From positions 1 through 59,428 of the IMG/VR virus record IMGVR_UViG_3300025127_000036: a stretch of DNA of 59,428 nucleotides. One strand, written 5' to 3'. The notes beneath the pieces are model-generated. The model saw nothing but the letters and a program-made list of their open reading frames with translations. It had not been told where the DNA came from and did not search any database. Within the stretch, counting starts at the first letter, position 1; every line of letters starts with the position of its first letter. Origin of the DNA: a virus. Lineage: Duplodnaviria; Caudoviricetes. Below are positions 10,893 to 37,873 of this stretch, in pieces. The translations under genes and the position numbers were made by a program.

Positions 10893-11885
10893 ATGCTACA
10901 ATTCTTACCTTATGCATTAGCAGCCTACGGTGGATACAAAGGATACAGAGAAGCTAAAGATGCTGGAGCTTCTGGTCTTGGTAGATTAGCGGGAGGAGCT
11001 ATAGGCGCCACATTAGGTTATTATGGTGGGCAAGCAGGATTAAAAGGCGGTGCAAAATTAGGAATACCAGGTTTTCAAACAGGACTAGATAAATTTGGAG
11101 GCACAATAACGGGATCGATTCCTACATTTACTAATTTACCTATTGTTCAAAACATACCTTTTGTTGGTGCAAACCAATCTAAAGGAATATCAGACTTAGG
11201 GAATTTTTTTACAAGACAACGTGTTGAAAATGGAAAAATTATTAAGGGTGAAAGACAAATAGATCCTATGAAAGCAGGGTTAGGTATTGGTGCATTAACA
11301 TATTTATCTGGTGCGTTTGATCCTCAAGATACAGATATTTTTTCACCGACTTACAATCTAGGTGTAGCAGATTTACAAGAGAAAAGAGATTTTAGATATA
11401 TAGATCCAGTCACTGGAGAAGAAAAAGTTTATGAAAAACTTTACATACCAGAAGCTGATCCAAAAAATAGAGGCGATGCACAGATGGGTAATATAGCAAT
11501 TGAGAGAACAACATTTAAAGCAAAGACCGGAGGTTTAGCTGAGATAAGAAAATTTAACGAAGGTGGTATAAATTATCTACCTTCGAAAGTTTCACACGAT
11601 GAAAACGATGCAAATAATTATGTTAGAGCACGTGGTTATGTTGAAGATGGATCAGGAAATGGTGATAAAGATGAAGATACGATGTTAGCACAATTAGCTG
11701 ATGGAGAATTTGTAACAAGAGCTGATGGTGTTTTAGGTGCAGGAATAATAAATGGCGGTAATCCAAACAGCATAAAAGATATGCGTGAAAAAGGTGCAGC
11801 TTATTTTTACGATCAACAAAGAAAATACAAAAGAGTTTTTGATTTATTAAAGGAGTCACATGGCCTCGACAAGAAAAAAAATTAA
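10893..11885 (+). CDS. internal virion protein
   Basis: Gly/Ala-rich hydrophobic N-terminus; C-terminal GDKDEDTMLAQLADGEFV motif common in phage virion proteins. Confidence 0.6.
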   Translation: MLQFLPYALAAYGGYKGYREAKDAGASGLGRLAGGAIGATLGYYGGQAGLKGGAKLGIPGFQTGLDKFGGTITGSIPTFTNLPIVQNIPFVGANQSKGISDLGNFFTRQRVENGKIIKGERQIDPMKAGLGIGALTYLSGAFDPQDTDIFSPTYNLGVADLQEKRDFRYIDPVTGEEKVYEKLYIPEADPKNRGDAQMGNIAIERTTFKAKTGGLAEIRKFNEGGINYLPSKVSHDENDANNYVRARGYVEDGSGNGDKDEDTMLAQLADGEFVTRADGVLGAGIINGGNPNSIKDMREKGAAYFYDQQRKYKRVFDLLKESHGLDKKKN

Positions 11886-31132: not shown

Positions 31133-31186
31133 TTACTCGTGCGGAGGCTATCATCCATATCATCTTTTCCCCTCCGCATGATGTAA
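31133..31186 (+). ncRNA. GC-clamped stem with 23-nt pyrimidine-rich (anti-SD/anti-AUG) loop
   Basis: TCGTGCGGAGG/CCTCCGCATGA stem, loop CTATCATCCATATCATCTTTTCC. Confidence 0.5.
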
Positions 31187-31375
31187 ATGGAAATATTTTT
31201 TAAGAAAAAACCTCATATTGATTTTTGCCGTGATTTAGAGGGCCCTGAAAAAAGTGAGTATATTGACATGGTTCTTGATGATTACAATTTTTCGTTAGAA
31301 ATGGCCTTCTCTCCTAAAACTAAAATGTTTCACCGTGAATTACTCAGCAAACTTGTTAAAACTTTTGGGCATTAG
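31187..31375 (+). CDS. hypothetical protein
   Basis: ORF track; no clear RBS. Confidence 0.5.
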   Translation: MEIFFKKKPHIDFCRDLEGPEKSEYIDMVLDDYNFSLEMAFSPKTKMFHRELLSKLVKTFGH

Positions 31376-31751
31376 GATATCATCGACCGTGGTTGAAAAG
31401 ACTAAGTCCCCTGAAGAAAAATTATTTCAAGCCGTATTATTGCAGGCTTTTGAAGATGTAAGTACCCTATCTGGCTCTAAACAGGAAAGTTATCTTAAAA
31501 AAGATGCTCATGATTGGATATTAGATAATGGTAAAAATTTTAAAAATGTTTGTTGGTGCGCGGGCCTTGATCCTGATTACGTACATGATCGGTATATAAA
31601 ACTGGTAAAAAATGGGTCAATAAAGTTTACCGAATTACAGAGATCGTGGGTAAAATATAGGAAATTATATAAAGATTATAGGAGTGCAAATTCTTCGAGT
31701 GAGAGGAGAGAAATTATGTTTAAAATTTCTGAGGTAAATTTAAAAAAATAG
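31335..31751 (+). CDS. hypothetical protein
   Basis: PEEKLFQAVLLQAFED..DAHDW..FKNVCWCAGLDPDYV, a recurrent phage family; start uncertain. Confidence 0.7.
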   Translation: MNYSANLLKLLGIRISSTVVEKTKSPEEKLFQAVLLQAFEDVSTLSGSKQESYLKKDAHDWILDNGKNFKNVCWCAGLDPDYVHDRYIKLVKNGSIKFTELQRSWVKYRKLYKDYRSANSSSERREIMFKISEVNLKK

Positions 31752-31769
31752 TCATGGTGGTCTTATAAA

Positions 31770-31862
31770 TTTTACCCCTGAGGGAAAATTAACTAATTGA
31801 GAGCATAAAATGAGAAAAACCCTCAGGGGCATGTTACATACTAAATGAGTGTTAATAAACAC
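31770..31862 (-). ncRNA. candidate antisense-loop sRNA B
   Basis: Promoter TTGTCC-17-TATAAA (31897-31869); 12-bp stem TGCCCCTGAGGG/CCCTCAGGGGTA with 35-nt U-rich loop. Confidence 0.6.
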
Positions 31863-31900
31863 ATCTTATTTATACAATAAAAACGGATAATGGACAACGG

Positions 31901-31990
31901 AAAAAGGCCCACGGCCCGTGGTGACAAATAAATGATAAAAAGAACCACGGACAACGGGCCAACAAAAGGTCTTTTATGAGTATAAAAAAC
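31901..31990 (-). ncRNA. candidate antisense-loop sRNA A
   Basis: Promoter AAGACA-17-TATAAT with TG extension (32025-31997); GC-rich stem 31906-31960 with 21-nt U-rich loop, then U5 tract. Confidence 0.6.
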
Positions 31991-32038
31991 TTTATAATTA
32001 TAACACAAAACCCTAAAAATGTCTTTAAGAAAAATTCC

Positions 32039-32261
32039 CTATATAGATTATACAGACCTTTGATTAATAAAAAGTACCCCCGTGGTCTAAAATGGTGTCC
32101 CTGATGTCCCTGAAGATGAATAAAGCAATAATATCAATGATTTAAGTAGGTTTTTATGGTGTCCCTATGGTGTCCCTATGGTGTCCCTTAGGGACACCTC
32201 TTGCGGGAACGCAACCTAAACTTTTTTGAAAGTTGATCATGTGTTAAAATAATCTATATAG
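32039..32261. repeat. iteron-like repeats inside a 13-bp inverted repeat; candidate replication origin or packaging site
   Basis: ATGGTGTCCCT at 32092, 32156, 32167, 32178; inverted AGGGACACC at 32190; CTATATAGATTAT (32039) / ATAATCTATATAG (32249). Confidence 0.7.
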
Positions 32262-32270
32262 TAAAAAATT

Positions 32271-32792
32271 ATGCCTCAAATTAAAAAAATTGAAAGATCT
32301 GAAAAAGATTTAACACCTAAGCAACGTATGTTTTGTGATATTCTCGTTGCAAATTGGGGTGAAATTACATATGCCGAGGCCTGTAAAAGGGCCAAATATG
32401 AGTGTGCTAATGAAAAAGATTATTCAGCTATAGCCTCAAGATTATTAAATAGAAGGTTAAATCCCCATATAGCAAAATATTTAGACAAAAAATATGAAGA
32501 AGAAGTTAATAAATTCTCAAAAGATAAACTTAAAAGATTTAAAAGATTAGATCATTTATCTAAAGAAGCTGAGAAGAGTAAACAATTTAATGTATCTGTA
32601 CAGGCTGAATATAGATCAGGCCAATTAGCGGGCTTGTATGTTGATAAGAGAGAAGTTAAAGTAAGTGGTTTAGAAGGAATGAGCCGTGTTGAACTTGAAA
32701 AAAAACTCAGTGAATTGTCAAAAAAAATTGATGGTTACAACGCCAAAACCATCGAAATCGAAGCCGAAGAGACAAAAGAGCTTCAAAAATAA
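32271..32792 (+). CDS. terS: terminase small subunit
   Basis: LTPKQRMFC..AEACKRAKY..ASRLL..NPHIAKYL N-terminal HTH; GLYVDKREV C-terminus. Confidence 0.75.
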   Translation: MPQIKKIERSEKDLTPKQRMFCDILVANWGEITYAEACKRAKYECANEKDYSAIASRLLNRRLNPHIAKYLDKKYEEEVNKFSKDKLKRFKRLDHLSKEAEKSKQFNVSVQAEYRSGQLAGLYVDKREVKVSGLEGMSRVELEKKLSELSKKIDGYNAKTIEIEAEETKELQK

Positions 32793-32866
32793 GACTTGGT
32801 CAGAATTTATATTTCTTTTTAATAAAAAACATAATTCTAATTTAAAAGTAAATACTGGAATAGTTA

Positions 32867-33163
32867 ATGTCAAAACGAAAAATAACGTTAAATAAAAGAG
32901 CTAAAACTGAAATAGAAAGATATCCCATGGTCTCCGTGGAGTGGTACGATATCGTATCAAATAGTTCATGGTCAAGTTTTCAAGAACTAAAAAAATCAAA
33001 ACTCGCAACATGCATTACAAAAGGCCATCTTTACAGTCAAGCAAAAGGAGTTACCAGAATTTTTGGAGATTATTCTTATTCTGAAAATGGCTTAGATATT
33101 GAAAGCATTGGAAACACAACTATAATACCTAATTCAGTAATTAAAGAAATAAAAAAAATTTAA
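32867..33163 (+). CDS. hypothetical protein
   Basis: VEWYDI..W..CITKG..IPNSVIKEIKKI conserved phage pattern. Confidence 0.7.
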   Translation: MSKRKITLNKRAKTEIERYPMVSVEWYDIVSNSSWSSFQELKKSKLATCITKGHLYSQAKGVTRIFGDYSYSENGLDIESIGNTTIIPNSVIKEIKKI

Positions 33164-37795: not shown

Positions 37796-37813
37796 TTTTT
37801 TGTCCTTTTGTTT

Positions 37814-37873
37814 TGGCATCTCATCAGTATGCGACCGCCACTCGCATAGACGGGGCAATGCCCCGTTTCGATA
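37814..37873 (-). ncRNA. type II hammerhead ribozyme
   Basis: UAUC-GAAA-CGGGGC(AUU)GCCCCG-UC-UAUGCGA(GUGGCGG)UCGCAUA-CUGAUGA-GAUGCCA: full core, three stems, GUC site. Confidence 0.92.

What the first reader, a model, noticed from the sequence alone, without database searches (positions are those of the whole stretch)
31770..32025. Tandem small-RNA cassettes displaying anti-Shine-Dalgarno/anti-AUG loops (best candidate for a new system)
Seen: two head-to-tail ~90-nt minus-strand units in non-coding DNA. Each has a 17-bp-spaced sigma70-type promoter (AAGACA/TGnTATAAT; TTGTCC/TATAAA), a small 5' hairpin, and a GC-rich clamp with G-U pairs favouring the minus strand. The loops are UCUUUUUAUCAUUUAUUUGUC (21 nt) and UUUUUCUCAUUUUAUGCUCUCAAUUAGUUAAUUUU (35 nt). 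Both are reverse complements of initiation-like regions (GACAAATAA-ATG-ATAAAAAGA; GAGAGCATAAA-ATG-AGAAAAA) with CAU exposed. Unit A ends in a U-tract a few bases before the -35 of unit B. I found only ~10-nt matches in this phage, so targets may be host or competing-phage mRNAs. Inference: a modular scaffold-plus-guide antisense array that blocks translation initiation.
Basis: partly seen in the sequence, partly recalled or inferred. Interest (0 to 1): 0.85.

Follow-up and report, generated by a model that had tools for sequence, protein, structure and literature searches.

The report
Two small antisense RNAs in pelagiphage
A marine SAR11 phage most likely makes two small non-coding RNAs from the strand opposite its neighbouring genes, one of them a previously undescribed RNA family shared by many relatives, but nothing shows that they block ribosome-binding sites.

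Summary
The 519-bp gap 31752-32270 contains two strong GC-stem hairpins with long loops. Each lies behind a 17-bp-spaced sigma-70-type promoter on the minus strand, and unit A ends in a U-tract 3 nt before unit B's -35.

The window is an HTVC023P-type pelagiphage. Unit B (31875-31749, minus) belongs to a conserved structured element. A covariance model finds one copy in 37 loci, including cultured HTVC023P and a phage contig in a Pelagibacteraceae assembly. All 10 stem pairs show compensatory changes. Non-Watson-Crick cells are almost all G.U on the minus strand, and the promoter is conserved in position. It matches no Rfam family.

Unit A occurs in only four lineages. In HTVC023P its hairpin lies about 65 nt downstream of a minus-strand gene (gp20).

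The "modular anti-SD/anti-AUG guide array" reading is not supported:
- The units are not paralogues.
- Most relatives carry only unit B.
- Unit B's loop motif (GCUCUC) is conserved rather than variable.
- CAU is not conserved.
- The phage's own SD is AGGAG-type.
- The loops bind predicted start regions of one complete SAR11 genome no better than shuffled loops.

Best reading: lambda-OOP-like convergent antisense RNAs beside an iteron-like array. No RNA data were available. The scan had not noted this element on other DNA.

The parts
31997..32025 (-). Unit A promoter: -35 AAGACA (32025-32020), 17-nt spacer, extended -10 TGTTATAAT (32005-31997)
   Evidence: scores it 10 of 12 with TG, the best site in 31300-32700. 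The extended -10 is kept in the L006/L007 and L034/L036/L041 lineages while the flanks diverge. The -35 is not conserved.
31969..31990 (-). Unit A predicted start (about 31990) and 5' AU-rich 9-bp hairpin (GUUUUUUAU-ACUC-AUAAAAGAC)
   Evidence: The same hairpin is present in L006 and L034 with U.G at different positions, which would be C.A mismatches on the plus strand. The start site is inferred from the -10, not measured.
31906..31960 (-). Unit A long hairpin (17-nt arms, 21-nt U-rich loop at 31943-31923)
   Evidence: On the minus strand 16 of 17 positions pair, three of them G.U. On the plus strand 13 of 17 pair (my reading). Homologous hairpins with different arms occur in L006, L034 and HTVC023P.
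31901..31905 (-). U5 tract ending unit A (intrinsic-terminator-like)
   Evidence: One search lists terminator-like sites on the minus strand only, both in this spot. A U-tract is also present in L034 (U6) and HTVC023P (U10) but absent in L006.
31869..31897 (-). Unit B promoter: -35 TTGTCC (31897-31892), 17-nt spacer, -10 TATAAA (31874-31869)
   Evidence: the pattern TTG[TC]C[CA]-N16-18-TAnAn[TA], always with a 17-nt spacer and at the same offset, is present in 15 of 29 distinct unit-B loci. Background expectation is 0.009 per window of that size.
31749..31875 (-). Unit B RNA element (model R1 match). Parts: small 5' hairpin 31862-31850; hairpin arms 31829-31820 and 31784-31775; 35-nt loop 31819-31785 with the GCUCUC motif; conserved tail UAAAAUUUAUAAGACCACCAUGACUA at 31774-31749
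   Evidence: One search gives 98.8 bits and it is the only hit in the window. The tail's last three bases are the complement of the ORF138 stop codon. The 3' end of the RNA is unknown.
31335..31751 (+). ORF138, the convergent upstream gene whose 3' end unit B abuts (function unknown)
   Evidence: Searches find no family and one search finds no solved relative. One search finds viral clusters only. The model has low confidence (pLDDT 54) and is all-helical.
32039..32261 (.). Context: iteron-like array (five direct GGTGTCCCT copies plus one inverted copy at 32093-32198) framed by the inverted 13-mers CTATATAGATTAT / ATAATCTATATAG
   Evidence: This is the part of the gap that blastn aligns in most relatives. 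The unit-B promoter points away from it.
32271..32792 (+). Context: terS-like gene
   Evidence: Weak Terminase_2 match (E 3e-4, below the cutoff) and phrog_51. It is 50% identical to the protein annotated as terminase small subunit in HTVC023P.

Best explanation
The stretch encodes two small non-coding RNAs, each with its own promoter, transcribed by the host sigma-70 RNA polymerase from the minus strand. They run convergently to ORF138 and away from the iteron-like array upstream of the terS-like gene.

- RNA-A is about 90 nt (about 31990 to 31901). It has a 5' AU hairpin, a long GC hairpin and a U-tract.
- RNA-B is at least 115 nt (about 31862 to 31749 or beyond). It has a small 5' hairpin, a 10-bp hairpin that exposes a conserved GCUCUC-containing loop, and a conserved tail ending at the ORF138 stop codon.

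Shown by comparison: RNA structure on the minus strand, conserved promoters, and the family status of RNA-B.

Inferred mechanism: they work like lambda's pO/OOP. Convergent transcription and antisense pairing would act on the plus-strand transcript that leaves ORF138 and would otherwise run through the iteron array into the terS-like gene. This would separate the replication-gene module from the array and terS region, and possibly destabilise the 3' end of the ORF138 mRNA.

My odds: a minus-strand structured RNA, about 0.85. An OOP-like cis or convergent role, given that it is an RNA, about 0.5.
For: Identity of the phage: terL is 71% and the terS-like protein 50% identical to those of Pelagibacter phage HTVC023P.

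RNA-B is a family:
- Model R1 finds 37 matches in 94 sources, and 29 rows are distinct. There is one hit per locus.
- The 24 hits in terS-anchored loci are all on the strand opposite the terS-like gene.
- HTVC023P has a match at MN698239 10683-10794, minus strand.
- A contig titled 'uncultured Pelagibacteraceae bacterium' (L246) has one too.

Structure:
- 90.3% of stem cells are paired, and 10 of 10 pairs show changes on both sides.
- 0 of 500 shuffles reach any of the five measures. Sliding the partner by 1-3 columns drops pairing to 41-67%.
- RNAalifold recovers 8 of the pairs on its own.

Strand:
- In 23 distinct stems, 28 cells are G.U on the minus strand. Four would be G.U on the plus strand, and those four sit in mis-registered rows.
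- A model-free scan of upstream regions gave 60 against 4.
- Near-identical L003 and L004 each carry one G-to-A change that keeps pairing only on the minus strand.

Promoter: strict -35/17/-10 pattern at the same offset in 15 of 29 distinct loci, against 0.009 expected.

RNA-A: the same two-hairpin fold occurs in four lineages. Minus-strand energies are -31.0, -28.2, -27.9 and -27.9, against -23.1, -25.9, -14.5 and -22.5 for the plus strand. Minus-strand z-scores are -5.9 to -6.5. The extended -10 is conserved.

Termination: in a second group of relatives (L014, L016, L017, L018, L022, L025, L037, L038, L045) the equivalent hairpin overlaps the stop codon of the ORF138 homologue. In 7 of 9 it is followed on the minus strand by at least four U. 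The motif UCAUUAUUUGCUCUCUU lies single-stranded just 5' of it.

Layout parallel with lambda: no plus-strand terminator is predicted in the gap. In lambda, pO drives a short leftward RNA that is antisense to cII and converges on pR transcription heading into the iteron origin. It tunes that transcription and replication (PMC3985674; abstract and passages read).

Not a known family: no Rfam hit at gathering score. The best weak hits have E 0.6 and 2.6.
Against: - No RNA evidence of any kind. Start sites, 3' ends and even transcription are inferred.
- RNA-B has no canonical terminator in this window. The stem is followed by UAAAAUUU, so its end is unknown.
- Pure cis-antisense action does not explain why the loop motif GCUCUC and the 26-nt tail are conserved.
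- The covariation alignment was fitted to the model, and many rows are close kin, so cell counts are inflated.
- RNA-A is confined to four lineages, lacks a U-tract in L006, and may be a leftover cassette.
- That the array is an origin is itself untested.
- A strand-biased G-to-A mutation pressure could add to the G.U asymmetry, though it cannot produce the double changes.
Confidence: 0.5

Rival explanations
1. These are cassette boundaries, not functional RNAs. The terminator-plus-promoter composites would mark the ends of minus-strand accessory gene cassettes (PeSL-like), serving as transcript ends, insulators and recombination points. Unit A would be an empty cassette left after loss of a gp20-like gene.
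For: - Hairpin A's U-tract is followed 3 nt later by the next -35.
- In HTVC023P a 132-aa minus-strand gene (gp20) sits just upstream of the homologous hairpin, which has U10.
- In L005/L021/L047 only the 19-nt end of unit A remains, directly next to the CTATATAG box.
- The gap differs greatly in content among relatives.
- Earlier scan note e1-3413489 describes strand-specific GC-rich modules bounding cassettes in another pelagiphage (not checked on that DNA).
- PeSLs are defined in PMC4122927 (abstract read).
Against: - RNA-B is present once, at a fixed place, in all lineages examined that match the model. It has a conserved loop motif and tail, which a mere boundary does not need.
- There is no family of repeated copies in this genome: one R1 hit and no other comparable hairpin.
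- Unit A keeps its promoter, 5' hairpin and terminator across lineages whose flanks have diverged to about 71% identity.
Confidence: 0.2
2. One or both RNAs would be trans-acting regulators whose exposed U-rich/CUCUC loop pairs with translation start regions of host or competing-phage mRNAs.
For: - The GCUCUC motif is always single-stranded. It sits in the loop in one group of relatives and just 5' of the terminator in another. That is typical of a seed.
- CAU lies 4-6 nt 5' of the motif in about half of the loops (by eye).
- The loops of A and B and the HTVC023P A-like loop share UUUUU(A/C)UCAU.
- GAGAGCAWWAA occurs 180 times in 31 genomes drawn from the genus of the L246 genome (G001), against 56 for the reversed control. 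The control contains CG, so the comparison is unfair.
Against: Tests against predicted start regions of genome G005 (composition-matched shuffles):
- Loop B: top-10 energy beaten by 2 of 45 shuffles, mean by 14 of 45, minimum by 10 of 45. Start regions average -8.67 against -8.49 for internal windows.
- Loop A and the 17-nt core of B: not better than shuffles. Top-10 was reached by 51 of 61 and 39 of 81 shuffles.

Other points:
- Only 2 of 72 GAGAGCA sites in that genome are intergenic.
- There are 2 sites in the phage itself, against 4.9 expected.
- The phage SD is AGGAG-type.
- The test has low power. Gene starts were called crudely, only one genome was used, and accessibility was not modelled.
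Confidence: 0.12
3. This is a DNA-level element. The hairpins would form in single-stranded minus-strand DNA, or as cruciforms, as part of a replication origin, priming signal or packaging site next to the iteron-like array.
For: - The hairpins are adjacent to the repeat array and the terS-like gene.
- The phage encodes a primase, helicases and DNA polymerase A.
- G.T pairs are tolerated in DNA hairpins, so the strand signal alone does not exclude minus-strand ssDNA.
Against: - Position-conserved sigma-70 promoters lie directly upstream of each hairpin, and U-tracts directly downstream in many lineages. DNA hairpins would not need either.
- When the iteron sequence switches to GGTGTATCT in some relatives, unit B is unchanged.
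Confidence: 0.08
4. The plus-strand mini-ORFs (MRKTLRGMLHTK in loop B, MIKRTTDNGPTKGLL in loop A) are the products, as leader or micro-peptides.
For: - ATG follows a GAGAG-type purine run in several loops.
- Three unit-A lineages each keep an open frame of 15-19 codons ending at the same TGA (my reading).
Against: - The ATG is absent in many unit-B loops.
- The ORFs range from 2 to 17 codons and have unrelated sequences (my reading).
- A 1-nt indel in L034 shifts the frame across the conserved GGACAACGG block.
- Loop lengths of 16-46 nt differ by non-multiples of 3.
- The stems pair as minus-strand RNA.
Confidence: 0.03

Closest known systems
Lambda OOP RNA and its promoter pO
   Same: Both are short RNAs from a sigma-70 promoter, transcribed opposite to the main operon. 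Both end at or over the 3' end of the upstream gene (cII there, ORF138 here). Both sit between that gene and an iteron-bearing region, so they converge on transcription heading into the iterons (PMC3985674, abstract and passages).
   Different: There is no sequence relationship, and no Rfam family matched. Here there are two tandem units. The hairpin loops are long (21 and 35 nt). RNA-B has a conserved loop motif and tail. The array has not been shown to be an origin. This phage group is described as lytic for its member HTVC027P (PMC12753301 abstract), so no lysis-lysogeny switch is expected.
PeSL composite terminator/promoter motifs of T4-like phages
   Same: A stem-loop transcript end is followed at once by a promoter. 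The site is one where accessory genes come and go among relatives (PMC4122927 abstract).
   Different: PeSLs are many near-identical copies spread through hyperplastic regions. Here there is one RNA-B copy per genome and no repeated family in the window.
Trans-acting phage or prophage sRNAs that occlude ribosome-binding sites (for example DicF; recalled, no paper read here)
   Same: It is a small phage-borne RNA with an exposed pyrimidine-rich single strand next to a stable hairpin.
   Different: No target was found, and the loops are not complementary to the AGGAG-type SD used here.
Intrinsic (Rho-independent) terminators
   Same: There is a GC-rich stem followed by U-tract on the minus strand for hairpin A. 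The same holds for the unit-B-equivalent hairpins of a second group of relatives.
   Different: Loops are 13-46 nt instead of the usual 3-8. In this window hairpin B is not followed by a U-tract.

Membership tests
Intrinsic terminator | GC-rich stem | tested here: met
   Both hairpins qualify.
Intrinsic terminator | Short loop (about 3-8 nt) | tested here: not met
   The loops are 21 and 35 nt. They are 13-46 nt in relatives.
Intrinsic terminator | U-tract immediately 3' of the stem | tested here: inconclusive
   Hairpin A has U5. Hairpin B is followed by UAAAAUUU, so the feature is not met there. It is met in 7 of 9 stop-codon-overlapping hairpins of relatives.
Lambda OOP/pO-type convergent antisense RNA | Short RNA from its own sigma-70 promoter, opposite to the flanking operon | tested here: met
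   This holds at sequence level only. The promoters are conserved in position. No transcript data exist.
Lambda OOP/pO-type convergent antisense RNA | Overlap with the 3' end of the upstream convergent gene | tested here: inconclusive
   In the window the conserved tail stops at the ORF138 stop codon. A second group of relatives shows a clear overlap of the last codons.
Lambda OOP/pO-type convergent antisense RNA | Placed upstream of an iteron origin with respect to read-through transcription | tested here: inconclusive
   The array is adjacent, but its origin function is untested.
Lambda OOP/pO-type convergent antisense RNA | RNase III-dependent decay of the target, or promoter interference | not testable with these tools
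   This needs experiments.
Trans-acting anti-RBS sRNA | Exposed seed complementary to the SD and start codon of target mRNAs | tested here: not met
   The phage SD is AGGAG-type. Pairing with predicted start regions of one SAR11 genome shows no excess over shuffles. There are 2 GAGAGCA sites in the phage against 4.9 expected. The test has low power.
Trans-acting anti-RBS sRNA | Seed conserved and single-stranded across homologues | tested here: met
   GCUCUC sits in the loop, or just 5' of the terminator, in all groups.
   There is one R1 hit in the window. Most relatives have a single unit. The unit-B loop motif is conserved.
PeSL-like composite motif | Terminator stem-loop directly followed by a promoter | tested here: met
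   The U5 tract ends 3 nt before the unit-B -35.
PeSL-like composite motif | Many similar copies per genome flanking variable ORFs | tested here: not met
   Searches find no other copies. Only HTVC023P gp20 shows a gene in this slot.
Any Rfam 15 family | Score at or above the gathering cutoff | tested here: not met

The most novel reading that the evidence does not exclude
RNA-B is a conserved riboregulator or decoy of the ocean's most abundant known pelagiphage group. Its exposed GCUCUC loop and nearly invariant 3' tail (AGACCACCAUGACUA) would bind a host RNA or protein to help take over SAR11 cells. RNA-A would be an accessory second regulator.
Probability: 0.15. Interest if true: 0.8.

Novelty: new member of a known kind. 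Interest (0 to 1): 0.55.

Why it matters
[quoted passage not shown] Two full-text searches found no description of small RNAs in pelagiphages. The terms were 'pelagiphage' with 'small RNA', and term finds in PMC12753301 and PMC9599517.

RNA-B has strong covariation, is absent from Rfam, and is present in the cultured phage HTVC023P. That makes regulation by phage RNA in SAR11 infections directly testable in an existing culture system. It also gives a model for annotating this element in viromes.

Tried and rejected
Searches that gave little or nothing:
- blastn of 31300-32900 against the phage collection found no match.
- ARAGORN found no tRNA or tmRNA.
- The look-up of sequencing runs listed no RNA holder. 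It returned three runs of unknown kind with shares of 0.20-0.28. I did not lay reads, because contigs of unknown library type cannot show strand or ends.
- The unit-A core pattern scan returned 30 stretches. Only those of three lineages were related; the rest were chance RBS-like matches.
- The 14-mer tail scan returned 119 or more stretches. Fifteen passed my filter, and I kept 9 of them as relatives for the alignment.
- The search for related loci with the terS-like protein found nothing in genome contigs.

Target tests (low power):
- Duplex energies of loop B, loop A and the 17-nt core of B against 1,342 crudely called start regions of one complete genome of that genus were not distinguishable from shuffled loops.
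- The single best core hit was the start region of an ETF-beta-like gene (named by eye from the translation). I treat it as chance.

ORF138:
- It has no family and no solved relative, and the AlphaFold model is poor (pLDDT 54). The function of the putative cis target stays unknown.

Ideas considered and dropped:
- The tail as a degenerate iteron copy. The iterons switch to GGTGTATCT in some relatives while the tail does not change.
- The tail or loop as a coding read-through or a minus-strand ORF. No frame is conserved.
- A closing helix between the 5' region and the tail. It appears in some folds but is not consistent.
- Similarity of loop B to the terS-like start region (pair I20). It is not kept in relatives.

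HTVC027P, the phage with a published transcriptome, lacks RNA-B. Supplements of PMC12753301 were not opened and would not bear on this element.
Full report
WHAT THE WINDOW IS

The window is a whole virus record of 59,428 bp, 98% complete. Its large terminase is 71% identical to that of Pelagibacter phage HTVC023P, and the terS-like protein is 50% identical. It is therefore an HTVC023P-type pelagiphage.

The finding lies in a 519-bp gap (31752-32270). On one side is ORF138 (31335-31751, plus strand, no known family). On the other is a terS-like gene (32271-32792, plus strand). Replication genes lie to the left: primase, helicases, DNA polymerase A and a ParB-like protein. To the right is a block of minus-strand small genes, then terL and portal.

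THE OBSERVATION

- Hairpin B has a perfect 10-bp stem and a 35-nt loop. Hairpin A has 17-nt arms and a 21-nt loop.
- The unit-A promoter AAGACA-17-TATAAT with an upstream TG is the best sigma-70-like site in 31300-32700.
- The unit-B promoter is TTGTCC-17-TATAAA.
- The U5 tract after hairpin A ends 3 nt before that -35.
- The two terminator-like sites found by the scan are both on the minus strand at hairpin A.
- As RNA the stretch folds better on the minus strand: -70.0 kcal/mol with z -5.1, against -58.6 with z -3.3.
- Such GC stems are rare in the genome. The whole window has 14, against 0-6 in 20 block shuffles, and six of the 14 are in this gap.

COMPARATIVE DATA FOR UNIT B

By blastn only the right half of the gap, which holds the repeat array, aligns in most relatives. 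The finding's half aligns in only a few. Relatives nevertheless carry, at the same place, hairpins with different GC stems and A-rich plus-strand loops.

I built a covariance model from 19 sequences. It found 37 matches in 94 sources, and 29 rows are distinct. There was one hit per locus. The 24 hits in terS-anchored loci are all on the strand opposite the terS-like gene. The matches include cultured HTVC023P and a contig titled as an uncultured Pelagibacteraceae assembly (L246). That contig also supports the SAR11 host assignment. HTVC027P has no match.

On the model-fitted alignment:
- 90.3% of stem cells pair, and all 10 pairs show changes on both sides.
- No shuffle out of 500 reaches the observed values.
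- Sliding the 3' partner by 1-3 columns lowers pairing to 41-67%.
- RNAalifold recovers eight of the pairs.

Caveats: the alignment leans towards the model, and many rows are kin.

WHICH STRAND

Among 23 distinct stems, 28 cells are G.U when read on the minus strand. Only four would be G.U on the plus strand, and these lie in rows the model mis-registered. A model-free stem scan of upstream regions gave 60 against 4. The near-identical relatives L003 and L004 each carry one G-to-A change in the plus-strand 3' arm. Each becomes U.G on the minus strand and C.A on the plus strand. A DNA cruciform would not show this asymmetry. Minus-strand single-stranded DNA is not formally excluded.

THE UNIT B PROMOTER

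A strict -35/17/-10 pattern sits at the same offset upstream of the hairpin in 15 of 29 distinct loci. Background expectation is 0.009 per window. By eye, several of the others have variants such as TTGACC-17-TACACT or an extended -10.

The recurrent GGACAACGG motif of the gap is the complement of this -35 region.

OTHER CONSERVED PARTS OF RNA-B

- The loop always contains GCUCUC or a close variant.
- A 26-nt tail (UAAAAUUU, four variable bases, then AGACCACCAUGACUA) is the most conserved part. It ends at the complement of the ORF138 stop codon.
- Loop lengths run from 16 to 46 nt.

A second group of relatives (L014, L016, L017, L018, L022, L025, L037, L038, L045) lacks the tail. There a hairpin overlaps the last codons of the ORF138 homologue. 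In 7 of 9 it is followed on the minus strand by at least four U. The motif lies unpaired just 5' of it, as UCAUUAUUUGCUCUCUU. The motif is thus kept single-stranded in two different architectures.

No Rfam family matches.

UNIT A

Its conserved core was found in only three lineages: window/L003/L004/L088, L006/L007, and L034/L036/L041. HTVC023P carries a recognisably homologous stretch.

All four fold into the same two-hairpin RNA on the minus strand, with z-scores of -5.9 to -6.5. Minus-strand energies are 2 to 13 kcal/mol better than plus-strand energies. The extended -10 TGTTATAAT is kept while the flanks diverge. The 5' hairpin has U.G at different positions in different lineages.

The loops differ. 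They are 21, 22, 13 and 15 nt long, and one lacks CAU. L006 has no U-tract.

In HTVC023P the hairpin, with U10, lies about 65 nt downstream of the minus-strand gene gp20. Unit A may therefore be a cassette end that lost its gene, or a 3'-end-derived RNA with its own promoter. In L005/L021/L047 only the last 19 nt of unit A remain.

1. The units are not repeats of one scaffold, and most relatives have only RNA-B.
2. Anti-SD. Of 74 gene starts in the window, 29 have GGAG and 32 have AGGA upstream, while 5 have AGAG. The loops complement GAGAG-type runs, not the SD in use.
3. Own-genome targets. GAGAGCA occurs twice in the window, against 4.9 expected. One occurrence is the locus itself. The other is on the non-transcribed strand of a minus-strand gene.
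4. Host targets.
   - The iteron sequence led to the L246 contig, and from it to handles for 31 genomes of that genome's genus.
   - I fetched one complete genome, G005 of 1,343,202 bp, and called 1,342 ORFs crudely.
   - I compared duplex energies of the loops with windows from -35 to +20 around the starts, using composition-matched shuffles and internal windows as controls.
   - Loop B: top-10 energy was reached by 2 of 45 shuffles, the mean by 14 of 45, the minimum by 10 of 45.
   - Loop A and the 17-nt core of B were not better than shuffles.
   - Of 72 GAGAGCA sites, 57 lie in genes in sense, 13 in antisense, and 2 are intergenic.
   - The test is weak, because starts are approximate, only one genome was used, and accessibility was ignored. 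It gives no support.
5. Plus-strand mini-ORFs. They vary from 2 to 17 codons, are often absent, and shift frame by a 1-nt indel in L034.

MECHANISM

Shown by comparison: minus-strand RNA structure, conserved promoters, and terminator features in many lineages.

Inferred: the role. The layout matches lambda's pO/OOP. There a short leftward RNA, antisense to the 3' end of cII, is made from a promoter that converges on pR transcription running into the iteron origin. That promoter's activity lowers the pR transcription and affects replication (PMC3985674; abstract and passages).

Here plus-strand transcription leaving ORF138 meets no predicted plus-strand terminator. It would run into the GGTGTCCCT array and the terS-like gene. 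Two convergent promoters and their antisense RNAs stand in between. I take this as the best-supported working model.

It leaves the conserved loop motif and tail unexplained. That keeps open a trans-acting or protein-binding role. The main rival is that these are PeSL-like cassette boundaries (PMC4122927 abstract; scan note e1-3413489). This fits unit A better than RNA-B.

NOVELTY

Small antisense RNAs of phages are a known kind. RNA-B is a new family with good comparative support. The group that carries it is reported as the most abundant known pelagiphage type (PMC12753301 passage). The searches found no description of pelagiphage small RNAs in the held library. No transcript evidence could be obtained (see Tried and rejected).

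Noticed in passing
window 37811-37873 (minus strand): Type II hammerhead ribozyme match (Rfam RF02276, 42.6 bits against a cutoff of 37, full length) inside the minus-strand early-gene block.
   Followed up: no
window 32039-32261; relatives L122, L166, L175, L199, L050: The array of five direct and one inverted GGTGTCCCT copies, framed by inverted 13-mers, is the best-conserved non-coding part of the gap. In some relatives all copies switch together to GGTGTATCT/GATACACC, as expected if a binding protein changed its specificity.
   Followed up: partly
L008, L011, L014, L016, L018, L023, L038, L040, L042 (upstream of the terS-like gene): Relatives carry 3-5 spaced repeats of about ATCCTCCCCnnnCCCCG in the gap. 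Read on the plus strand these look like anti-SD sequence. On the minus strand they read GGGGAGGAU, a perfect SD core with no ORF behind it. They are absent from this window.
   Followed up: no
L246 (contig titled uncultured Pelagibacteraceae bacterium): A 47.8-kb contig in a Pelagibacteraceae genome assembly carries the iteron array and RNA-B (83.8 bits). This is independent support that this phage clade infects SAR11.
   Followed up: partly
L072, L064, L056, L059, L058, L080, L246: In more distant relatives a small, very basic ORF (starting MMKK...) is inserted between the iteron array and the terS-like gene, directly behind the ATAATCTATATAG box.
   Followed up: no
window 31140-31178: Another GC-stem hairpin (8-bp stem TGCGGAGG/CCTCCGCA, 23-nt loop) lies 600 bp to the left. 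It is not matched by the RNA-B model.
   Followed up: no
MN698239 (HTVC023P) 10921-11319, minus strand: gp20, a 132-aa minus-strand gene, occupies the slot between the repeat region and the unit-A-like hairpin. It is absent from this window, so the gap is a site of gene gain and loss.
   Followed up: partly
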